A DNA stretch of 64,000 nucleotides from Phyllosticta citribraziliensis (GCF_038025025.1 NW_027117341.1:1984001-2048000), one strand, 5' to 3'; shown: positions 625 through 62,064, counted from the first letter of the stretch. Notes: generated by a model not told the origin, from the letters alone. Numbers and translations are program-made.

Positions 625-2828
625 GGAGGTGCGACTGAACTGGACTGAAAAGGGGGGGAGAGAGAGAGGGTGTGGGTTGTGTGGATATCTTAGCTACAGT
701 TTTAGAAGAGGAGCGGTCCGCGCGAGCGGCAAAAGTTCTTGGTTCACGCGGCGGCAGCAGAAGCAGCAGCAGCAGCGAGGGAGAGAGGGAGGGAGGTTGA
801 AGTGAGGATGGGAGCTGCAGGGCTTGGCTTGGCTTGCCTGGCTGGCTAGGGCTGGTTGGGGCGTCGTGAGTGAAGAAAGAAATGAGCCCTATCCCCCCTG
901 CATACATGCATGCTTTCTGCATGCTTTCTGCACCACCTCTACCACCACCGCTGCCGCCGCCTGCATATCTGCATCTGCATGCAGGGTGGGTGGGTGGGCA
1001 AGGGACTGACGGATGGTGGCAAAGGGACAGACCCGGGAATCGGGCACCTCATCTCATCTCATGTCATATCGTTTCTTCACTGGCGGTCTTGGCGGTGGTG
1101 GGGTGACGGGGAAGTGGGAGATGGGAGAAGTGAGTGAGGACGAGAGAGCGAGCGTGGGTGGGAGTGTGCTGTGTCTGGGCTGGGCGAGAGAGAGAGAGAG
1201 AGAGAGAAGGAAAGGAGGTCTGGAGTGACAAATAGAAAAGATACCCCCCTACCTACATATGTAGCAATCTACAATCTATACAATCTACAAACTTCATCAC
1301 TCTACCTTACTCTACTCTAGTCTTCTTTGTCAGGCCAATCATTGCCACTGCCATCACAGCAATTCAATCCCATGCCGACCTGAGCACTTTCAGGGCACGC
1401 GTGCACTTGCTTCTTCAGGCACGGGGCTTGAAGACGCGCAGGAAGGAACCAGCCTCCTTGCGTCGTCGTCGTCGTGTCGTGTGTAGGTGCAGAAAACATC
1501 GGCACGGCACGGCATGGCATGGGTGGATCGGCGCCGAGGGATGGGAAGTGTGCCTGGATGGGTAGTTGGGTGGGCGAGATGGTGCGTCCTCGCTTGACCT
1601 CTCTTCTCCTAACTTTGCAGATTCCTTGCGATGGGTGGACGCGTCGCGGCACCGCCGCCGTGTGGCATGCAATCACACAACACCCAGACCGTCGTTTCTG
1701 CAGTCTACTAGTCTTCCAGTCTTCCAGTCTTCCCTAAGAAACTAGGGACAGCCTCCACATACTGCATACTGCATGTTCCTTTAGCAGAACTGCCGGCTTT
1801 GTATTCGAGCAGCAGTGCCGAAGCGTAGGTGCGTAGAGGAGGGTTGGCGGGTTGGCGTGCGATGGTGGTGGAGCACTGCCTGTGGTTTTGAGGAAGGTGT
1901 TTTTGTAGATAGGGGGCATGGCATGACCGCATTCTACCGCCCTATGGGCCTTACGCTTCTGATCACTGATGACGGGGGCGAGGTATCAAGGTATGCAGCA
2001 CGGCGCTGGTGGTGGGAGCAGGCTACCTATCCTGTTCTGTTTGGCGGCGACTGGGGCTACGCGCTGTTTTCGGTGCGCGGGCGATCGTCGTCTTGGGTTA
2101 CAAGCCGCAGTATCGTTGGCTGTGCGGACGCGGGGTTGTTGATGCAGGATTAGTGCGAGCGACGGGAGAGCTGGTACTGCGCACTGGGCTGGGCATATAC
2201 TTGAGCTGATGCATGTGTCGTGATTTCTTGATTGTCTATCGTAAGGTGAGAGGAAAGGCAGGAAGGGGAACGGGGTTTGTTGGTGATTGTGAGTAGGACT
2301 ACTCAGTGCAGAAGCCGCAGTGTACATGTATTGTCGTGGTGAAGAAGGCCTATCCACTAAATCCCTCGCAACAAGTCCACCTCATGGCGCGCCCAAAGAG
2401 CAGGGGAAGCACCGGCCTTTTGTTCCGTAAAGCCCTTTCATAACCTCCTTCCCGTTGAGCTTTCTCGATGTCCGATTGTGCCGCGTCTTTTGTCGACGGA
2501 AGAGGTGTCTATGCCGTGTGTTGTCCGGATATCGCGAAGGGTGAATTAAACGTGGTAGAGAGGGTAGCTGGAGATTGGTCAGTTAGGCACGTCAAATGTG
2601 GAAGGGATGTTGAGGGGACTGACCGGCGGGGGGTAGGTGAACTGACCACTGTATGGATTGCGGCCGTCACTTGTCGCTGTACGCCCCTAGCTTGCCGACG
2701 TCGTGATCTGACTGATGGCTGGCGTTTGTGACGGCTTTGGCTGCGCAATTGCTTTGCAAGGCTGCTGGAATGGACGCTCTTTCTGATTGCTTGTGTCCGT
2801 CACTGAGTTGAGAAGTGTACGTGCTGTG

Positions 2829-3290
2829 TCAACGCCTGGCCAAAAGTCTCGCTCCACTGGTCGCCAATCGACCGAAAAGACTCAACACCCGGGTAATGAA
2901 GAACTCGGCTAGAAGACGCACGACCTCCTCCTGTTCTGCAACGTAAGCCTGCCCGCGGTGCTGGATAGTATCATCCTGCCAGAAATAATCGAAATGCTCC
3001 ATCTCAAGGAACTCCTCCAGAGCCTCAGTGAAAACTTCCGGCTCAAGACATTCATCATCGCCCTCGAATGGCTGCCTGCCCCGGTTGGTGAACAGACTGG
3101 CGTAGTGCTCTCTGTCTGGGTCGAAGGTCTCGATGAAGAGGCGCAGTTTGGCCGCCTCGTGAGGGAAGGATTGGGTGAACTTGAGCATGTCGTAGATGTG
3201 GTGGAGCCGATATGCTTTGCGGAGGTGGCGGCACAGATCTTTTTCACCGCTGCGGTAGGCTCTGCGGAGATCGTTCAGAGAAGACGCCAT
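2829..3290 (-). CDS. Orphan family A, copy 1 (153 aa)
   Basis: Intact ORF sharing HLRxAYRLHxIY..FI..FD..PF..DxCL..F..FW with two neighbouring ORFs. Confidence 0.7.
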   Translation of the reverse strand: MASSLNDLRRAYRSGEKDLCRHLRKAYRLHHIYDMLKFTQSFPHEAAKLRLFIETFDPDREHYASLFTNRGRQPFEGDDECLEPEVFTEALEEFLEMEHFDYFWQDDTIQHRGQAYVAEQEEVVRLLAEFFITRVLSLFGRLATSGARLLARR

Positions 3291-3504
3291 GATGGTATTG
3301 GGAGCGTTGGGTTCTCATGATCTGTTGTTGGGGCATTGTTGCATATTTAAGAGGGTCGGGGGTTTGCACGGCTTGCTTGACGGCTTCGTGGAAGCATGGT
3401 TGCGTTTGCTGGAATGAATTGTACAGTCGCTTGGGTTGGTTGTGTTTGTCACTGAGTTGAGATGTGTTGGCGCTGTATGGCCGATTGTCTCGCTCAGCGC
3501 GTCA

Positions 3505-54298: not shown

Positions 54299-54902
54299 GA
54301 TGGTAAAGTGGGATGCGGAACTTGCGTGCGTGTAGCTGAGAGAGAAGATCTTGCCTTTGGTGTTGCGGAACTTCTCTAAGGATTAGTCGTTTCTCGGCAC
54401 TGCTGGAGATTCTGGGTCGACAGGTCCAATCGAACCAAGTACATTCAGCTGGTGAGCGACAGAGAACCATTGTAAAAATTCAGGGCAAATTTCGACTGGA
54501 TTTCGAACGCATGATCGCAATATTCCATAGCTCTTGAATCATGAATGCAGCTTTGATTCAATCTTGGAATGCTTCTTGTGGGCTGGGTGTGCTTGTATCG
54601 GCGTTTGCTTACATCGTCGTGGAGATATCTAGAAGTAAGTCGGCCTGTCCTCCCACCTCCAACACGAAACACGCACCACAAACGCACCTCTCCCCTCCCA
54701 TCCCAATTCAAGCCCCATCAATCCATCTTGTCTCAGCTCGATCTACTTCAAGCTTCCTCTTCCTGTCATTCGAGTCGTGCCTTCGCGCTCTGTCGTTTCC
54801 GTCGCCGTTTCGGCGCACGGGATCTGGCGCTCGCAGACCAAACCGGTGAGTCAACTCCAAGTTTGCGACCAAGCCGCGTCGCACTCTCTCTTCCCTTTCC
54901 CC

Positions 54903-55055
54903 ATGACGAGACCTTGGCAGAACAGAATCGAGTCCTTCTCTCGGTCCTGCGATTGCGCATCGCTGAAGCCGCCTCGTGCTGGTTTCACGGTCGCGCAATC
55001 GCCAGTTCAACCAGAGATTGCGACGCTGCGAACAACCCAAGCTACAACCATCTGA
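54903..55055 (+). ncRNA. Box C/D RNA, intron 1 (long, internal hairpin)
   Basis: Intron 54846-55135; C ATGACGA 54903, D' CAGA 54923, D CTGA 55052, branch 55112. Confidence 0.65.
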
Positions 55056-55279
55056 GCCTTTCATCCTTACATGGCCGTCCAGTATGTCATTTTTCCTTCA
55101 AGTTCCCCTTTGCTGACTTGTTTCCTCCCGAGCAGACTTAGCGGCGCGCGTTTCTTCCGTGTGCGGCGGCTTTTGGCTTGGTGACTCTCACCTCCCAGCC
55201 AGACTTTTGGCACGCCCTGCATCTTACAATCCCATCTCAGTAAGTTTGTCCCCATCTCAACACTCTTCCCTTTACGGGC

Positions 55280-55343
55280 GTGATGACCACATTTAAATTT
55301 GCACGACCGTGAGGGTGCACCCAATGATCGTCGATCCTCCTGA
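55280..55343 (+). ncRNA. Box C/D RNA, intron 2
   Basis: Intron 55240-55415; C GTGATGA 55280, D 55340, branch 55391. Confidence 0.75.
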
Positions 55344-55589
55344 TCCCCTTGCCTTTCCTCGCCGAACTCTCCCACCTTCACCGTACCAACGCTAACCTTT
55401 TCAATATCCCAAAAGGTTCATGTGCCGAAGCCTTTGTATTTCGCGTCGCATCGCCTGTTGGCAGAGATCCTCTGGGCCCTTTCGAGGCCGCACACAATAT
55501 GGACAAGACATTCCCTGGAGCAACATCGAGCAATTTCCGGTCTCCCTTTGAAAGGCTTTGTAAGTCCTTGTCGCTTTGCCGACCTCCAC

Positions 55590-55647
55590 ATGATGACCGT
55601 ACTATTTTCAAGAGCGGCGTTGCCGCGTGGCTACACACAATCTCTGA
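55590..55647 (+). ncRNA. Box C/D RNA, intron 3
   Basis: Intron 55560-55706; C ATGATGA 55590, D 55644, branch 55695. Confidence 0.75.
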
Positions 55648-55793
55648 GCCATCACATCTCGTCTTCCGCACTCGTCCCACATCTTAAACACCGCGCTGAT
55701 TCTCAGACAGATTTCGATACTCGAGCAACGCCCACGCAGGCAGCACCAGTAAGTCCGCACTGTCGCTCCGCGATCAACCGCAACGACCTTTGC

Positions 55794-55858
55794 ATGATGA
55801 AGCCACAGAAGTTCATGGACATGAGCAGTTTTGCCACTGATTCAACCAACCTTACTGA
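55794..55858 (+). ncRNA. Box C/D RNA, intron 4
   Basis: Intron 55749-55924; C 55794, D 55855 (alternative CTGA at 55837). Confidence 0.7.
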
Positions 55859-56046
55859 TTTCCGCCCTCTCGTTTGTTTTTCCTCGAGCTTTAGCGCACA
55901 TGCTTAACTTTTGTGATTTGGTAGACACCGTATCTCGAAGCAGGCATCAGAGCGCAATGCATCTTGGCCTCCACCTCTACCTGCTTTCATTCAATGCAGC
56001 AAAGATAACCCAAATAAGTTTTGTTCCCTTTTTCCATTTCAGATAC

Positions 56047-56112
56047 CTGATGACGCAGAAAGCAAGAATTTGAGAGGTCCCGCCGGCCGAATGTAAAAAG
56101 CACCACGTCTGA
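56047..56112 (+). ncRNA. Box C/D RNA, intron 5 (donor reads ATAAGT)
   Basis: C TGATGA 56048, D 56109, branch GCTAAC 56159, CAG 56183. Confidence 0.6.
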
Positions 56113-56267
56113 TCCACCTCCCCTATTCCACTGTCTTGTTATGAATACAAGAAAAATGGCTAACACAAACCGTACGTCGACAGGGCTGCCTTCAACGGAA
56201 GGCTTCTGACAAGTCACCAGACAATCAGTGAGTGCACTGATTCCCCGCTTTCCCCTTTCCATCGATC

Positions 56268-56318
56268 GTGACGACAGCTTTGGGTTGATACACGTGATTC
56301 TCCTCTTCCTTCTTCTGA
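56268..56318 (+). ncRNA. Box C/D RNA, intron 6 (short)
   Basis: Intron 56228-56386; C GTGACGA 56268, D 56315, branch 56365. Confidence 0.65.
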
Positions 56319-56563
56319 CATCTACACTTCGCTTTTCATTTCGAAGCCCATGGTACAAACTTCCGCTGATTCATTGTGCCCTGCAGAACTGCACCGCCGG
56401 TCAGTCACTCCCCTCCTATCTCAGCCCCGACTAGCCGACCATGGCGCATGATTTCGTCTTGGATATCTCGGCCATCCTGAACGGACACAATTTCCTCTAA
56501 GGCGCGCCTGGTAAATCCATGCGACAGGTAAGTCCATACACATACCACATCCACCAGTATCCT

Positions 56564-56629
56564 GTGATGAACCAATCAAGCATGCAAATGAGTGGCTTGA
56601 ACGAGCACATGACTTTACAAAACATCTGA
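56564..56629 (+). ncRNA. Box C/D RNA, intron 8
   Basis: Donor 56528; C GTGATGA 56564, D 56626, branch 56676. Confidence 0.78.
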
Positions 56630-56773
56630 CATACTCCTCCTCCCGTCTTGGTCCTCTTGCACCTTGAAAGCAATGGCTGACATTCCTCGTGTAAGGACAG
56701 CACACTTTTCAGGCTCTCATTCGGACGAATTCGGTACGTCATCCCAGCGTTTTACTTTTTTTTTCCCTTGCAA

Positions 56774-56843
56774 ATGATGAACGACTTTTCGGTGTGGAGC
56801 GCAAGTTATTTGCTGCGTGAACACACACAGTTTCCTTTTCTGA
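56774..56843 (+). ncRNA. Box C/D RNA, intron 9
   Basis: Intron 56734-56921; C 56774, D 56840, branch 56900. Confidence 0.75.
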
Positions 56844-56981
56844 TTCGCAGGATCGATTGCTGTCTATCTACATGGTTGCTTTTTGAGCACATTCCGGTCG
56901 CTGACTTCTCCCATTGAACAGGAAGATCATGCTCCTCCGTGTCCGTAAGTTCCTGCACCCTTCTCTTCCCTGCCGTACACC

Positions 56982-57065
56982 ATGATGATCAAATCTCTAA
57001 CGAGAAGTGGGCACTGTCCGCTCCAAGACTGATTACACATGTTTTTATCTATTTTGCCGAACTGA
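56982..57065 (+). ncRNA. Box C/D snoRNA, intron 10; candidate 25S rRNA guide
   Basis: Intron 56945-57127; ATCTATTTTGCCGA before box D is antisense to 25S UCGGCAAAAUAGAU. Confidence 0.88.
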
Positions 57066-57194
57066 TTGATCCAACCCAATTCACCTTGTTTGATTTTCAG
57101 AAATTTGCGGACGCTGACTTCTCACAGTTGATACTGCGAACTCCCTTTCGTGCAACAGTAAGTTTCCTACCCTTCCTACTCCCTGCCCTACTCC

Positions 57195-57280
57195 ATGATG
57201 ATCCAAATCTATCTTACATGAAGTGGACGCTGTCCGCTACAAGATCGATTAGATGCGTTTTATCTATTTTGCCGAACTGA
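57195..57280 (+). ncRNA. Box C/D snoRNA, intron 11; paralog of intron 10 RNA
   Basis: Intron 57158-57340; same 14-nt antisense element at 57262-57275. Confidence 0.88.
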
Positions 57281-57593
57281 TTCATTCTACCCTCTGTCTA
57301 TTCTGGCTCGCTGTTGCGCATTGCCGACGCTAACTCCCAGTCGACAGGATTACTCTTTCATATTCGCATACTTAACACGCAGGGATGGTGCTTCCCTCAA
57401 AACTCCAACGCGCCGGTAAGCTCTCTTCCCCGTATACTCGCGAGTATCCTCGCTAGTCCTTACATTTTAAAGCACCCGACGCTTCACAGGCTTCCGCAGC
57501 GCTTCTTTTGCACCACCGCCACGAAAGTGCCTCCAAATATGGCTGATATCAACGCAAGTAAGTGGCAACTCCCCCCACACACTTCCCCTTTGA

Positions 57594-57667
57594 ATGATGA
57601 GCCGTGTCGTCATGCTTTTGAGGTCGGGCTTTTCTACTCGATCGACGAGATTCCCACACACTTCTGA
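57594..57667 (+). ncRNA. Box C/D RNA, intron 13
   Basis: Intron 57558-57729; C 57594, D 57664, branch 57717. Confidence 0.78.
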
Positions 57668-57810
57668 TTTCATCAATTGCTTTCTTTACCTTTCTACACA
57701 CATGTTTTTTGCAGGAGCTGACATTCCAGACTGAGGCAGTGCTTGCTTGGCCCACACAATACGATTCCCGCATGTGAGTGACCAATCCCCTCCTCGCGCC
57801 ATTATTGCAA

Positions 57811-57882
57811 GTGATGAGTCCCTGATGTTGTTCTGAGGTCGAGGTTTGCTTCCTGATCGAAGATGTCATCTAACCGTTCTGA
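57811..57882 (+). ncRNA. Box C/D RNA, intron 14
   Basis: Intron 57774-57951; C 57811, D' 57833, D 57879, branch 57931. Confidence 0.8.
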
Positions 57883-58024
57883 CTGTTTTTGCAACCCTCC
57901 CGTTTCTTTGCATTTAGGTTCCTGGCGATAGCTAACATTCTGTTGAACTAGAGAGCCCCTCGTACAATCCTGAGAATCAACGCAGGTAAGCTGTGCTCCT
58001 CACCTGCTTCCCTTTGCCCGGTAC

Positions 58025-58073
58025 ATGATGATTGAAACTCGCGGAGAGAATGACGACATTTTCGGCCTTCTGA
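58025..58073 (+). ncRNA. Box C/D RNA, intron 15 (49 nt)
   Basis: Intron 57986-58141; C 58025, C' ATGACGA, D 58070, branch 58121. Confidence 0.72.
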
Positions 58074-58201
58074 TTGCCTTTCCTCCTGCTCTATTTGTTT
58101 CAGCTACTTCATTCTGACCCGCTGACGCTGTTTTGTTCTAGGAATCGTTTGTAGCGAAGCGCGTAAGTATTTCCCTCCCCAGTTCCCTATCTACCCTTCC
58201 T

Positions 58202-58290
58202 GTGATGTCAAATTCTTGCAGAAGTCGACGTTGTGGGCTTAACGGCCTGCCCTGTCGACGCATGATCTGGACTACACTCATTCCATCTGA
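58202..58290 (+). ncRNA. Box C/D RNA, intron 16
   Basis: Intron 58163-58355; C GTGATGT, D' CAGA, GTCGAC stem, C' ATGATCT, D 58287; 10 nt (ACTCATTCCA) antisense to 18S UGGAAUGAGU. Confidence 0.72.
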
Positions 58291-58432
58291 TGCTCTTTGC
58301 CACTACTCGATTCATCTCGAACGTTGCTTCCATCCCGAGGTAACGGAAAATTCAGATCACGTTACGATTGACGCGAATTCGAGTTCCCACCGGTAAGTCT
58401 CCCCTGTCTTCATCTCTGTTTCCCACCCTCGT

Positions 58433-58498
58433 ATGATGATCCAATCTCTTTGACTGCCGATTTTGTCGGCTGTATGACTACTTAGAATGATTTTCTGA
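58433..58498 (+). ncRNA. Box C/D RNA, intron 17
   Basis: Intron 58393-58574; C 58433, GCCGA/TCGGC hairpin, D 58495. Confidence 0.8.
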
Positions 58499-58644
58499 TT
58501 CCTTTCCGTCTTTTTCGAATCTTGCTGTTCTCCGGCTTTCGCGAAGAATCCAAGCTGATGTTGCGCCACCGCAGATACTGTCATCGATCGGTACTCGCGA
58601 AACACAACAAAGGTCAGTCTTGCCACTCTTTTGTTCGCCCTGAC

Positions 58645-58709
58645 ATGACGAGAAAATATATATGGAGGCCGACACGCGCGGCCACGTGACGCTTTAGTAG
58701 TTTTTCTGA
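58645..58709 (+). ncRNA. Box C/D RNA, intron 18
   Basis: Intron 58613-58783; C ATGACGA 58645, C' GTGACG, D 58706. Confidence 0.72.
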
Positions 58710-58851
58710 CACGCCTTCTGTTTCCTCTGGATTGAGTGCATGTCCAGACCTTCCTTTGACTGACTTCGATCTCTGGTGGACAGCACCGTCTTCAACTCAA
58801 TGCATTCCATGCTGGTGAGTCTTCCGCTACTCCTTCTCCATTCTCCCTGAC

Positions 58852-58925
58852 ATGATGAACAAACTTTTCCGACTGTTGACACCGTCGGCTGTGTGGACAC
58901 ACAACTATTGCATATGACTATCTGA
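58852..58925 (+). ncRNA. Box C/D snoRNA, intron 19; candidate 18S 5'-end guide
   Basis: Intron 58815-58995; GCATATGACTA before box D is antisense to 18S UAGUCAUAUGC. Confidence 0.85.
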
Positions 58926-59063
58926 GTTCTCTTTCCTTCGCTTGCAATCCGCTCTGAACATCTAGAAAATTCTTACTAAGCCCGTGCATATCCAGGAAGC
59001 AACTTTCATGGTCGTTCGTCCAAGTAAGTCCTCCATTCTCCCCCTTCTTGCCTTTTTCCTCAG

Positions 59064-59129
59064 ATGATGACCATGACCAAGTCGAGGCCGACTTCGTCGG
59101 TCCATGGAGCACTTGGATGCGGCATCTGA
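59064..59129 (+). ncRNA. Box C/D RNA, intron 20
   Basis: Intron 59024-59196; C 59064, GGCCGAC/GTCGGTC hairpin, D 59126. Confidence 0.8.
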
Positions 59130-59263
59130 TCCGTCTAAATTCTTCTCCACTCCTCCGAAGACCGCATGGGCACCGGCTGACGACCGGCATACTTAGTTCA
59201 AGTCACCCTCACTGTGATCACATTCAAGTAAGATTAGCGCCCAAATCTTCCTGTCGCTCCTTA

Positions 59264-59354
59264 ATGATTACAACCTACCACTTCTGAGTTCGACGATGTC
59301 TATCCATGAAAAACACTTTGTTACCTAACATTGTGTTCCCTTGCACGTCACTGA
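59264..59354 (+). ncRNA. Box C/D RNA, intron 21; candidate 25S guide
   Basis: Intron 59228-59424; C ATGATTA, D' 59284, D 59351; TTGCACGTCA antisense to 25S UGACGUGCAA. Confidence 0.72.
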
Positions 59355-59533
59355 TTCAAGCAACACCGAGATATTCAGTCAGCCCCGCGGGAGTAGGACT
59401 ACTGCTAACATTTGGTGCTACCAGGCAGGTCTGCTCCATTCCTTTGCTCAGCCAAGAAACTTGATGAAGCCGTTGCCGAAATGAGTAAGTTACTTCGTCC
59501 CCTCATCCTTCCAATGCCTTCCACAACATATTC

Positions 59534-59604
59534 CTGATGATGTCAGATTGGAAGAGAACTGAACGACTGGCTCGACCAGCTGTTGATGCACACACTTTTT
59601 CTGA
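59534..59604 (+). ncRNA. Box C/D RNA, intron 22 (shared-scaffold subfamily)
   Basis: Intron 59485-59674; C 59535, D' 59559, D 59601. Confidence 0.82.
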
Positions 59605-59732
59605 TCCCGTTTTATCCTTACACTACCACCAATGAATCTTCCACCTTGACAACTGCTAACAATTTGATGAATAGATGCGGCAAGCAGCTTTTTACGTACG
59701 TTGTTCGGCCCGTCCATTCCTTTCCCCTCCGC

Positions 59733-59807
59733 ATGATGGATACATACATTGGGAAAAAGTTCTGAACGACTGGACTGCAGCCGTTGACGTATACCTTTCA
59801 TTTCTGA
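59733..59807 (+). ncRNA. Box C/D RNA, intron 23 (shared-scaffold subfamily)
   Basis: Intron 59696-59867; C ATGATGG, D' 59762, D 59804. Confidence 0.8.
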
Positions 59808-59986
59808 CACTAGCCACATTTTCCCACCTCCAAATCCGTGAAATTCATTGCCGCTGACGCATGACAGGACCAGAATAGCTTCAGTTGCCCTCAAATCGCA
59901 TTTTCGGCGAACAAACAGCCTTTCAAGTAAGTTGTTATGGCCTTCCGCCAACAAAGCTCTCAACCATTAATTACCACAACCCTCGA

Positions 59987-60063
59987 ATGATGATGATATA
60001 TTAAGCTCAGGAAACTGAACGACTGGCTTGACCAGCCGTTGACGTACATACGCACACTTCTGA
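59987..60063 (+). ncRNA. Box C/D RNA, intron 24 (shared-scaffold subfamily)
   Basis: Intron 59927-60128; C 59987, D' 60015, D 60060. Confidence 0.83.
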
Positions 60064-60260
60064 GCCCCATTGCTTCTGCCCCTACCTCACTCCCGAGTCT
60101 TCTGTATTGCACTGGCTGACGCAAATAGCCAACCATGTACAGATGCTCCGCAAAAACTGTCCTCTTGTCCATTCGGACGCTTCCATGCCAGGAGTTGTGC
60201 GGAAGACAGCCTTGCAACCGTAGTAAGTCGCCCTGCCCCCTTGTTCTCTTTCACCCCTTC

Positions 60261-60335
60261 ATGACGATACTCCCAAACAGTTCAGTGATCTGAACGACTG
60301 GCCTGACCAGCCGTTGACGCCAAACCCATATCTGA
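60261..60335 (+). ncRNA. Box C/D RNA, intron 25 (shared-scaffold subfamily)
   Basis: Intron 60223-60404; C ATGACGA, D' 60290, D 60332. Confidence 0.8.
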
Positions 60336-60765
60336 CCCCGCGCACCGCTCTTCTATCCATCGCAAGGTGCCGAGTTGAAGACGGCTGACGCGCAATACAT
60401 CTAGACGTGCCCTCTCAACCCCTGAGCAAGCCGGCCCAACCCCATTTTCTGCAACTACTTGTCCAGCAGGGGAAAGAGTAGCCGCTCCCATCTGCAGGTC
60501 AGTCTGCACGAAGCCGTCATCGCCAGAGCAGCCGACTGAGCCCTGATTGTCGAGACGCGCGAAGCCGACCGGCGCGGCCTGCTGCTTGGTGTTGTTACAC
60601 AGAAAAGCCGATATCTCTCCAGCCCGTCGAGCTGCGAAGCAGATACGCGCTCTGTTAACAACAACCACGCAGTAAAGAAAAGGGTTGGGCATTCCGTCTG
60701 TTTGCACATTTCGTTTTGACAGGTACGCCGCCTCTCCTCCGTCTCCTCTGCTCCAGAGCGCGCAC

Positions 60766-60844
60766 ATGATGGAAAACTCGAACCCATGGCTTGCATGAGT
60801 ACCGAATCTGACTGTCCGGTCATGACTACACAACTCGCGTCTGA
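60766..60844 (+). ncRNA. Box C/D RNA, intron 27
   Basis: Intron 60723-60924; C ATGATGG, D' ATGA 60795, C' ATGACTA, D 60841. Confidence 0.77.
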
Positions 60845-61007
60845 GCGCTCTCTCCTTTCCTTTCTCCATCATCTGGGACTCCCCCTCGCGGAACCGATCG
60901 CTAACGCACAAAACGCACGTATAGGCTACACTCCGCGCGGGAGAAGCCATTTCGTTGTAAGTGTGTCCACACCCTACCCTCCTATCCTTCGCTCCCTGGG
61001 CGCATGC

Positions 61008-61084
61008 ATGATGAGACACGCACGCATGGCTTACATGAGTCCTGGATTTGACCGTCCAGTGGTGACTAAGATATTAGCGTCTGA
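61008..61084 (+). ncRNA. Box C/D RNA, intron 28; paralog of intron 27 RNA
   Basis: Intron 60957-61161; C 61008, D' ATGA 61035, D 61081; GCATGGCTTA antisense to 18S UAAGCCAUGC. Confidence 0.82.
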
Positions 61085-61463
61085 GCTTTTTGCGCCCCGA
61101 ATCTTCTTTCGCTTGAGTCTCGTTTGTTGCGCGTTGGCTAATTCATGGAACTGGTGGGCAGGTCGGCGGTGGGTGTCGGGCTAGGGCGTCAGGGCGGTGC
61201 CGCGGTGCTGTGTTGGATGAATCAAACTGCCGTGTTTTTCAGGGTTGCGTGGCGTTGTGGTGACTTTGGATAGGCAGGATACGTTGAGGCGTGGAACAAG
61301 TGTGCGATAGCACTGAACGACGAAAGAAAATGGTTGACAGGCAGAGAAAACTCCACCCGGGTCCTGATTTCTCAAATGATGGCCCGAAAGATGCAAACCC
61401 AGACCCTCGTATCCCAAACGCCTTGAAACGCCTCAAATACAAATCGAGCCCGAGCACAGCGCC

Positions 61464-62064
61464 TCAATCCTCGCTGCGGTCCCTCCGATAACGGTCGTCC
61501 CTGGTGGCCTCCTCTCCGACCTCCTTCTTCATGGCGTCTCTCAATCTCTCCTCCTGTTTTCTCCAGTGGCTGCCCTCCTCGTAGTCTGCGCTAATGCCGA
61601 GGGCTTTCCGCAGCTTCTCGCTCTCCTCGATCTTAGCGGCGGCGAGCTCGTGCACTTGGTGCGACTTGAGCTTCTGCGCCTTGGACTTGTCCATCCGGTC
61701 ATTCGAAGACTCGGCCTCCTTCTGCAGCTTTTTGCGCAGGGCGTCGCATTGGTCGTCAATGTCGTCCTCGTCGACGCTGGGGCGCGTGTTAGCAAGGTTC
61801 GTCTGGTGGTTGCGGCGGTGGTCATGCGCACCCTTCGTCCTCCAGCCGGTCTCTCAGCTCAAACACCTTGACTTCGATGGCGCGCTTGCGGTCGTGCTCG
61901 AGGATCTCGCGGTCGGGTTGGCGCTGGCGGTGCTGCTTGATTTGGTCGTAGTCCTTGGTGTAGGGCGCAGCGTTGTCGCGCGGCCTGAGGAGCGAGAGGT
62001 TGCGCTGGACGTAGCCGGATGTGCCACTGCCGCGCGGCGTCGAGAGGCCGACGTTGGAGGACAT
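61464..62064 (-). CDS. CWC21: Pre-mRNA splicing factor Cwc21
   Basis: MSSNVGLSTPRGSGTSGYVQRN, ILEHDRKRAIEVKVFELRDRLED, YEEGSHW; intron 61777-61831. Confidence 0.95.

What the first reader, a model, noticed from the sequence alone, without database searches (positions are those of the whole stretch)
55280..60335. Most array members look like orphan guides
Inference from comparing with remembered conserved 18S/5.8S/25S/U2/U6 sequence: most D and D' guides show only 9-nt or shorter, or gapped, complementarity. Some resemble rRNA-antisense guides with indels: aaaaagca-cc-acgt (56095-56108) versus 25S ACGUUGCUUUUU, and tgatcgtc---gatcc (55325-55337) versus 18S GGAUCGAAGACGAUCA. Several end in cacactt(ttt)CTGA (57664, 59601, 60060). 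Targets could be mRNA, tRNA, snRNA or variable rRNA segments, or the guides may be decaying.
Basis: inference. Interest (0 to 1): 0.72.

Follow-up and report, generated by a model that had tools for sequence, protein, structure and literature searches.

The report
Fungal intronic snoRNA array, mostly rRNA-orphan
A fungal non-coding gene carries about 24 small box C/D guide RNAs, one per intron, and only a handful of them match ribosomal RNA, so most have no evident target.

Summary
The array is real and larger than reported: 24 box C/D units (54903-61084, + strand), one per short GT-AG intron of a non-coding host gene. The window is fungal; a neighbouring protein is 93% identical to a Phyllosticta one. 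A contig from a public run joins five host exons exactly at the predicted borders.

I tested the guides against real fungal 18S, 5.8S and 25S. These came from other fungi, and 32 positions of the 25S model were missing.
- 5 of 24 D guides (s08, s09, s13, s16, s18) have a box-anchored perfect match of 10 nt or more. Chance gives 0.42 (0 of 300 shuffles reach 5).
- 2 of 24 D' regions have a 10-mer, which is the chance level.
- Overall complementarity is no higher than to reversed rRNA (71 versus 88 runs).

So 17 of 24 units have no perfect rRNA match of 10 nt or more. Own rRNA, snRNA, tRNA and mRNA could not be tested.

Paralogues (s08/s09, s19-s22) keep boxes and the internal hairpin. Guides differ, except the shared 25S guide of s08/s09. 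I read this as tandem duplication with guide turnover, not plain decay. Known kind, unusual size and orphan share.

The parts
54760..60700 (+). Non-coding multi-intron snoRNA host gene. The ends are approximate, and s23 further downstream may belong to it or to a second host.
   Evidence: 24 modelled introns, 23 of them GT-AG as set. The spliced model is 1743 nt and its longest ATG ORF is 86 aa. Five junctions are seen in a public contig.
54903..54966 (+). s00, a C/D unit (C ATGACGA, D CTGA) in an unusually long intron. No rRNA match.
55280..55343 (+). s01. The D guide gtcgatcctc pairs 9 bp (8 WC + 1 GU) with 18S GGGGAUCGA. The D' guide pairs 10 of 11 with 25S GACGUGCAAAU.
55590..55647 (+). 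s02, a C/D unit with an internal hairpin. No rRNA match.
55794..55858 (+). s03, a C/D unit with two CTGA motifs. No rRNA match.
56047..56112 (+). s04, a C/D unit (C CTGATGA). Its intron has ATAAGT where a 5' splice site is expected. Only an 8-nt match to 25S.
56268..56318 (+). s05, a short unit (51 nt, 56268-56318) with a pyrimidine-rich D guide. No rRNA match.
56564..56629 (+). s06. It has imperfect complementarity to 18S nt 22-35 that is not box-anchored.
56774..56843 (+). s07. The D guide pairs 9 WC + 1 GU with 25S AGAGGAAACU. Borderline.
56982..57065 (+). s08. The D guide is 14/14 Watson-Crick to 25S UCGGCAAAAUAGAU.
57195..57280 (+). s09, a paralogue of s08 with the identical D guide and a diverged D' region.
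57594..57667 (+). s10, a paralogue of s11. The D guide ends in cacactt. No rRNA match.
57811..57882 (+). s11. No rRNA match above the decoy.
58025..58073 (+). s12, a compact 49-nt unit (C ATGATGA, C' ATGACGA). The D guide pairs 9 WC + 2 GU with a variable part of 18S. Borderline.
58202..58290 (+). s13. The D guide is 10/10 to 18S UGGAAUGAGU (reference positions 505-514).
   Evidence: intron removal seen
58433..58498 (+). s14, a paralogue of s16. It has a 10-mer to 18S 19-28, but 12 nt away from box D.
   Evidence: intron removal seen
58645..58709 (+). s15. No rRNA match.
   Evidence: intron removal seen
58852..58925 (+). s16. The D guide pairs 11 WC + 1 GU with 18S GUAGUCAUAUGC (positions 20-31).
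   Evidence: intron removal seen
59064..59129 (+). s17. The D' region is 10/10 to the 18S 3' part ACUUGGUCAU, and the D' box is not consensus.
   Evidence: intron removal seen
59264..59354 (+). s18 (C ATGATTA). The D guide is 10/10 to 25S UGACGUGCAA.
59537..60335 (+). s19 (59537-59604), s20 (59733-59807), s21 (59990-60063) and s22 (60261-60335). This paralogue family shares the core CTGAACGACTGG..CAGCCGTTGAYG and has unlike guides.
61008..61084 (+). s23. The D' region is 10/10 to 18S UAAGCCAUGC (positions 45-54). The fifth paired nucleotide is C49 if D' is read as CATG.
58356..59221 (+). Exons seen joined in a public contig: 58356-58391, 58574-58610, 58782-58813, 58995-59023 and 59197-59221. 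The loose end before them equals 58147-58162.
   Evidence: (run X2, record 9, 0 other letters), checked

Best explanation
This is a long non-coding snoRNA host gene of a Dothideomycete, apparently a Phyllosticta. It has at least 24 short introns, and each carries one box C/D snoRNA unit.

Shown: the units, their one-per-intron layout and the splicing of five introns. Also shown: a minority of D guides is directed at conserved 18S/25S sequence, and most guides have no rRNA complement of 10 nt or more.

Inferred mechanism: after splicing and debranching, each intron is trimmed to the snoRNA. The snoRNA is protected by the core C/D proteins (Snu13, Nop56, Nop58 and the methylase Nop1/fibrillarin). 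The units with rRNA complementarity direct 2'-O-methylation of the nucleotide paired to the fifth guide position upstream of box D.

The array grew by tandem duplication of intron-exon modules. Selection keeps what is needed to make a snoRNP: boxes C and D, the D'-hairpin-C' core, and the spacing to the splice sites. Guide sequences are replaced freely unless they have acquired a useful target, as the shared 25S guide of s08/s09 has. Most members are therefore rRNA-orphans. They are either young guides without a fixed target or guides for RNAs I could not test.
For: Array and layout:
- 16 canonical C...D starts fall in 6.4 kb, against 4 in the rest of both strands.
- 24 of 24 units have CTGA.
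- The distance from the 5' splice site to box C is 30-63 nt.
- The distance from box D to the 3' splice site is 60-78 nt in 23 of 24 units. This is my count: three 3' splice sites (s01, s13, s16) come, not, and s15 and s19 use one search's CTRAC branch points.

Splicing: a 175-nt contig of run X2 lies in five pieces at exactly the GT-AG borders, with 0 other letters. Its loose end equals the preceding exon.

Non-coding host: the longest ORF of the spliced model is 86 aa.

rRNA guides: 5 of 24 D guides have an anchored perfect match of 10 nt or more, against a null mean of 0.42, and 0 of 300 shuffles reach 5.

Orphan majority: D' regions score 2 of 24 against about 2 expected. Runs number 71 real against 88 decoy.

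Duplication:
- s08/s09 score 53, s19-s22 score 23.5-35.5 and s10/s11 score 24.5. All exceed the null maximum of 17.5 (null 99th percentile 13.5).
- In s19-s22 the stretch from D' to C' is nearly invariant, while both guides and the flanks differ.
- In s08/s09 the stretch TTTTATCTATTTTGCCGAACTGATT is identical, while the D' region and the downstream intron diverge.

Relatives: a related organism (run X5) has contigs at roughly 87-96% identity across all 30 bins of the array.

Taxon: Fungal_trans_2 domain; the D123 protein is 93% identical to a Phyllosticta protein.
Against: The rRNA references come from other, unnamed fungi found as contaminant contigs. The 25S 3' part comes from a fungus with 5S in its spacer. 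Positions 2330-2361 of the LSU model are missing.

No accumulation of the mature snoRNAs was seen, and no run on record as RNA holds the stretch.

Terminal stems next to the boxes are no better than chance: 3 of 24 have 4 bp or more, P = 0.21. Eight C boxes depart from RTGATGA. Rfam matches nothing at gathering score, and only 4 weak C/D rows appear at E up to 10.

By the D+5 rule the best guides point at positions that I do not recall as methylated in yeast. Of these positions, only C49 appears in the N. crassa table, and it is predicted by s23, a D' region, not by any of the five D guides.

Strongly conserved cores could also come from recent gene conversion and need not reflect selection.
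Confidence: 0.6

Rival explanations
1. The orphan units are true guides whose targets lie outside mature rRNA. Candidates are spliceosomal snRNAs, tRNAs, pre-rRNA spacers (ETS/ITS) or mRNAs.
For: In N. crassa, 4 snRNA and 3 tRNA sites are predicted for C/D snoRNAs (abstract and Table 1). Boxes and cores are maintained here. None of these target classes could be searched. U6 was absent from everything within reach.
Against: Paralogues share no guide except s08/s09. A close variant and a relative differ from the window at two positions inside s07. In N. crassa only 7 of 71 predicted sites are non-rRNA, whereas 17 of 24 units would be needed here.
Confidence: 0.3
2. Most units do guide rRNA methylation, and the matches were missed. 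The reasons would be heterologous references, the 32-nt gap, or duplexes that are 8-9 bp, G:U-rich or bulged.
For: s01's D guide pairs 9 bp at GGGGA*UCGA. From recalled yeast sequence I take this for the snR54/U59 site; N. crassa has 18S-Am971 there. s07, s12 and s19 have 9 WC + 1-2 GU anchored at box D. s22 has 11 WC + 2 GU.
Against: With G:U allowed the excess over shuffles disappears: 8 real against a mean of 5.4, P = 0.18. Score distributions for rRNA and reversed rRNA are alike. Methylated rRNA cores are nearly invariant among fungi: the four 18S 5' references are identical at the sites checked, and the N. crassa guides match 10-17 nt, nearly all without mismatch.
Confidence: 0.15
3. The orphan units are decaying pseudo-snoRNAs: relics of duplication that no longer accumulate or act.
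For: Several features fit decay:
- No terminal stems above chance.
- Variant C boxes in 8 units.
- s04's intron lacks a GT donor.
- Two introns have only a remnant or no snoRNA at all.
- s14 keeps an 18S antisense 10-mer displaced from box D.
- Passages of PMC12309372 describe pseudogenes by mutated boxes and weak stems.
Against: D boxes are intact in 24 of 24 units. The D'-hairpin-C' core of s19-s22 is nearly invariant while the flanks are not. Intron geometry is kept. The clearly functional s08/s09 lack terminal stems too, so that criterion does not discriminate here.
Confidence: 0.2

Closest known systems
[quoted passage not shown] 2009, PMC2780460; abstract and sections 3 and 4 read)
   Same: One C/D snoRNA per intron, canonical splice signals, a host with only short ORFs, and similar distances to the splice sites.
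   Different: That paper reports six clusters, and the named ones are small. Only 2 of its 55 C/D snoRNAs are orphans, and most of its guides are D' guides of 10-17 nt. Here 24 units sit in one host, 17 lack any rRNA 10-mer, and the significant guides are all D guides.
Fungal clusters I-III: snR78-72, snR57-55-61 and snR41-70-51 (Luo et al. 2013, PMC3596301, section 5; Canzler et al. 2018, PMC5824354, passages)
   Same: Polycistronic, intronic in filamentous ascomycetes, with poorly conserved non-coding spliced RNA.
   Different: Those clusters have 3-7 members with conserved order and conserved rRNA targets across Ascomycota. None of their target sites was recognised among the matches here. 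That comparison relies on site numbers and on recalled yeast sites.
Mammalian snoRNA host genes UHG/GAS5 and the tandem orphan C/D arrays SNORD115/116 (recalled, no call)
   Same: A non-coding spliced host, tandemly duplicated intron-snoRNA modules, and members without rRNA complementarity.
   Different: SNORD115/116 copies are near-identical to one another, guide included. Here the paralogues keep the core and differ in the guides. This is a fungus, and no imprinting context applies.

Membership tests
Box C/D snoRNA | Box C (RUGAUGA) near the 5' end | tested here: met
   16 of 24 units have RTGATGA. The other 8 differ at one position: 4 ATGACGA/GTGACGA (s00, s05, s15, s22), 2 RTGATGT (s13, s19), ATGATTA (s18) and ATGATGG (s20). 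s04 (CTGATGA) keeps the UGAUGA core.
Box C/D snoRNA | Box D (CUGA) near the 3' end, 49-91 nt from the start of box C | tested here: met
   24 of 24 units.
Box C/D snoRNA | Internal D' and C' boxes | tested here: inconclusive
   Clear in s19-s22 (CTGA ... TGAYG), s11, s12 and s01. Degenerate or ambiguous in many others. The N. crassa paper also reports degenerate C'/D' boxes.
Box C/D snoRNA | Short terminal stem joining the two ends | tested here: not met
   3 of 24 units have 4 bp or more within 3 nt of the boxes. Permuted partners give a mean of 1.6, P = 0.21.
Box C/D snoRNA | A guide of 10-21 nt complementary to a target, ending at D or D' (the D+5 rule) | tested here: inconclusive
   Met for 5 of 24 D guides on rRNA and at chance level for D' regions. 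Other target classes were not testable.
Box C/D snoRNA | Match to a curated Rfam C/D family | tested here: not met
   0 matches at gathering score in the window. At E up to 10 there are 6 rows, 4 of them C/D families (13.9-24.1 bits), the best named one being snR56 at 22.8 bits against a cut-off of 54.
Box C/D snoRNA | Stable RNA bound by Snu13, Nop56, Nop58 and fibrillarin | not testable with these tools
   No small-RNA data. No listed holder is on record as RNA.
Non-coding snoRNA host gene (UHG/GAS5-like) | One snoRNA per spliceosomal intron, with the introns spliced out | tested here: met
   Splice signals flank the units. Five introns (s13-s17) are absent from a public contig.
Non-coding snoRNA host gene (UHG/GAS5-like) | The spliced RNA lacks a long ORF | tested here: met
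   The longest ATG ORF is 86 aa in a 1743-nt model whose ends and some borders are guesses.

The most novel reading that the evidence does not exclude
Phyllosticta and its relatives carry a fast-evolving 'nursery' of C/D snoRNPs. This is a 24-unit intronic array that keeps making assembly-competent snoRNAs with new guide sequences by tandem duplication. Most of them act on non-rRNA targets or on none yet. It would be a fungal counterpart of the mammalian orphan C/D arrays and a natural system in which to watch new methylation guides arise. The few rRNA-directed members would place 2'-O-methyl groups at lineage-specific positions, for example near the 18S 5' end and next to the snR62 site of 25S.
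Probability: 0.3. Interest if true: 0.75.

Novelty: new variant of a known kind. Interest (0 to 1): 0.55.

Why it matters
Fungal C/D snoRNAs are described as about 68 families, nearly all with conserved rRNA or snRNA targets, sitting in small conserved clusters (PMC5824354 passages, PMC2780460). A single host gene with 24 units, most without an rRNA target and with paralogues that keep the snoRNP core but swap guides, would do two things. It would show how new guide specificities are born and lost. It would also point to unrecognised targets or lineage-specific rRNA methylation in a plant-associated Dothideomycete. The question becomes directly testable with RiboMeth-seq and small-RNA sequencing.

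Tried and rejected
Own genome and rRNA:
- No genome is held, so own rRNA, snRNA, tRNA and mRNA could not be searched.
- Family searches with the LSU model on handles failed twice.
- Metagenome records could not be extended, so complete rDNA units from one organism were not obtained.

Searches for rRNA references:
- Viral-contig scans gave 0 loci, then 5 loci of which only one held a 25S fragment. That fragment was used only in the first listing.
- The NS1 and NS2 motif searches in contaminated assemblies gave only contig ends or nothing.
- U6 was sought in a handle and in 14 control genomes, with no hit anywhere.

Literature and earlier notes:
- The supplements of the N. crassa paper (snoRNA sequences and pairing diagrams) were closed. 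Homology to named N. crassa snoRNAs therefore rests on site numbers only.
- Earlier-findings look-ups returned nothing.

Sequencing runs:
- No RNA holder is listed for the stretch.
- The table of differences from the relative X5 was cut: 656 rows were not shown. Guide-versus-flank conservation could not be measured.

Analyses that gave no signal:
- Searching 119 oriented rDNA loci including spacers (127 kb) gave only noise beyond the conserved hits: 7 D-anchored 10-mers real against 3 decoy, and every unit hits something in both.
- Gapped alignment of guides gave no excess over the decoy except for s08 and s09, and slightly for s12, s20 and s22.

Reading rejected: the idea that 'tgatcgtc' in s01 is part of the guide. 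It fits a C' box (ATGATC).


Full report
**What is there.**
Reading 54800-60800 and scanning for box motifs gives 24 box C/D units on the + strand, s00 to s23, between 54903 and 61084. That is two more than the finding's span covers. Each has a C box: 16 have RTGATGA and 8 are single-position variants. All 24 have CTGA 49-91 nt downstream.

A strict RTGATGA...CTGA scan finds 16 starts in this 6.4 kb. It finds 2 elsewhere on the + strand and 2 on the - strand of the whole window.

Each unit sits in its own short intron:
- Box C lies 30-63 nt behind a GTRAGT-type donor.
- In 23 of 24 units, box D lies 60-78 nt before the acceptor, which follows a CTRAC branch site. This is my count. Three 3' splice sites come, and s15 and s19 use one search's CTRAC branch points.
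- Exons are mostly 13-144 nt.
- The modelled spliced RNA (1743 nt, with approximate ends) has no ATG ORF above 86 aa.

Two further introns hold only a remnant (about 56400-56501) or no snoRNA (from 57416). s04's intron has ATAAGT where the donor should be.

**Organism.**
The window is fungal: one ORF has a Fungal_trans_2 domain. The D123 protein encoded next to the array is 93% identical to a protein named from Phyllosticta citrichinensis. It is 81-83% identical to two other Phyllosticta species and about 60-64% to other Botryosphaeriales.

**Expression and relatives.**
No genome is held. Of the public runs that share words with the array, four were laid on it.

A 175-nt contig of run X2 lies in five pieces with no differing letter: 58356-58391, 58574-58610, 58782-58813, 58995-59023 and 59197-59221. 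Its loose end before 58356 (GTTTGTAGCGAAGCGC) equals 58147-58162, the exon ahead of s13's intron. This is what a spliced host transcript looks like. The introns of s13 to s17 are removed at the predicted GT-AG borders. The tool labels the run's kind (RNA) as a guess.

Run X5, a different organism label, covers all 30 bins with contigs at roughly 87-96% identity. A second contig matches only some units. So relatives have a collinear array with differences in content. The table of differing letters was cut (656 rows not shown), so I could not measure guide conservation from it.

**rRNA references.**
Rfam finds no rRNA or any other family in the window. I obtained real fungal rRNA from fungal rDNA contigs that contaminate bacterial assemblies and from metagenome contigs, placed by Rfam:
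- 18S positions 1-883, from four contigs.
- 18S positions 567-1831.
- 5.8S.
- 25S model positions 1-2329 and 2362-3401.

Thirty-two positions of the LSU model are missing. None of the references is from this species.

**Test of the observation.**
- Ungapped antisense runs of 10 pairs or more (at least 9 Watson-Crick) between the interior of the units and rRNA number 71. Against reversed rRNA they number 88. Permissive score distributions are alike.
- Anchoring to box D changes the picture for a few units. Five of 24 D guides have a perfect 10-mer ending 0-1 nt from box D (s08, s09, s13, s16, s18). Shuffled guides give a mean of 0.42 and a maximum of 3; 0 of 300 shuffles reach 5.
- With one G:U allowed the count is 7 against 2.3 (P = 0.003). 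With two G:U it is 8 against 5.4 (P = 0.18).
- For the D' side, 2 of 24 units (s17, s23) have any 10-mer within 22-26 nt of box C, against 1.8-2.2 expected.
- Gapped alignment gives no general excess.

Hence 17 of 24 units have no perfect rRNA match of 10 nt or more in either guide.

**The matching guides.**
- s08 and s09 pair 14/14 with 25S UCGGCAAAAUAGAU.
- s16 pairs 11 WC + 1 GU with 18S 20-31.
- s13 pairs 10/10 with 18S 505-514.
- s18 pairs 10/10 with 25S UGACGUGCAA.
- s17's D' region pairs 10/10 with ACUUGGUCAU near the 18S 3' end.
- s23's D' region pairs 10/10 with UAAGCCAUGC.

If s23's D' box is read as CATG, its fifth paired nucleotide is C49. That is the site listed for N. crassa CD4 (18S-Cm49).

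N. crassa CD22 (snR62/U34 family) has a 14/0 guide for 26S-Um1866. By my recalled placement of that U, the s08/s09 duplex covers the same stretch but puts the fifth position three nucleotides downstream.

s01's D guide pairs 9 bp with GGGGAUCGA. From recalled yeast sequence I take this for the snR54/U59 site.

The gapped s01 resemblance is real, but 'tgatc' is better read as a C' box. The s04 resemblance reduces to 8 nt distant from box D, and the recalled 25S string differs from the reference. The cacactt endings are present.

**How the array evolved.**
All-against-all alignment shows paralogues far above shuffled controls (null 99th percentile 13.5, maximum 17.5):
- s08/s09 score 53.
- s19-s22 score 23.5-35.5.
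- s10/s11 score 24.5.
- s14/s16 score 21.5.

In s19-s22 the stretch from D' (CTGA) through a hairpin to C' (TGAYG) is almost invariant. Both guide regions and the flanks are unlike. In s08/s09 the D guide plus box (TTTTATCTATTTTGCCGAACTGATT) is identical, while the D' region and the downstream intron have diverged.

This is the pattern expected if snoRNP-forming elements are under selection, a guide is conserved only where it has a target, and other guide positions turn over. Gene conversion of cores is an alternative I cannot exclude.

**Against function.**
- Terminal stems are at chance, although this is true of s08/s09 as well.
- No mature snoRNA was observed.
- Some units look damaged: s04's donor, the short s05, and s14's displaced antisense.

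**Comparison with what is known.**
Intronic C/D clusters in UHG-like hosts are established in N. crassa and across fungi. They have 3-7 members with conserved rRNA targets, and orphans are few (2 of 55 in N. crassa; 6 of 68 families in the fungal survey). Two full-text searches listed no paper describing a fungal array of this size or orphan share. I read those listings, and passages of the survey.

I therefore file this as a new variant of a known kind.

**Verdict.**
A minority of members are rRNA guides, and the nature of the rest is open. My preferred reading is duplication-driven guide turnover, at moderate confidence.

Noticed in passing
window 59959-61200 and beyond: A 2089-nt contig of run X2 with very high word depth (1525, against 11.5 for the spliced host contig) covers s21, s22, the long last exon and s23 without any splice. 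It runs on past 61200. It may merge an abundant RNA or the antisense gene's transcript with host pre-RNA.
   Followed up: partly
window 61464-62064, - strand: An ORF whose N-terminus reads ...GLSTPRGSGTSGYVQRNLS. From recall this looks like the cwf21/CWC21 splicing-factor motif. It converges on the end of the array. No family search was run on it.
   Followed up: no
window 56020-56030: The intron that should hold s04 starts with ATAAGT instead of GTAAGT. s04 may not be released by normal splicing in this genome.
   Followed up: partly
window 56400-56501 and 57416-57480: Two host introns lack a full snoRNA. The first holds a truncated C/D-like remnant (ATGATTT ... CTGA, about 25 nt apart). The second holds none. 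Both suggest unit loss.
   Followed up: partly
window 56601-56614, 58471-58482, 58910-58921: Three units (s06, s14, s16) carry antisense to the extreme 5' end of 18S (nt 19-35). Only s16's is next to a D box.
   Followed up: partly
window 56788 and 56822 (inside s07): A near-identical metagenome variant (X1) and the relative X5 both read C and G where the window has T and C. So s07 varies within or next to its guide regions.
   Followed up: no
L001-L013, L131: Fungal rDNA contigs sit in assemblies labelled as bacteria or bacterial MAGs. This is contamination. L131 also carries a 5S gene on the opposite strand behind the 25S.
   Followed up: partly
L021 (18S part): The 18S stretch spans 1704 nt for 1265 model positions, so this contaminant fungus probably has an insertion (an intron) in its 18S.
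   Followed up: no
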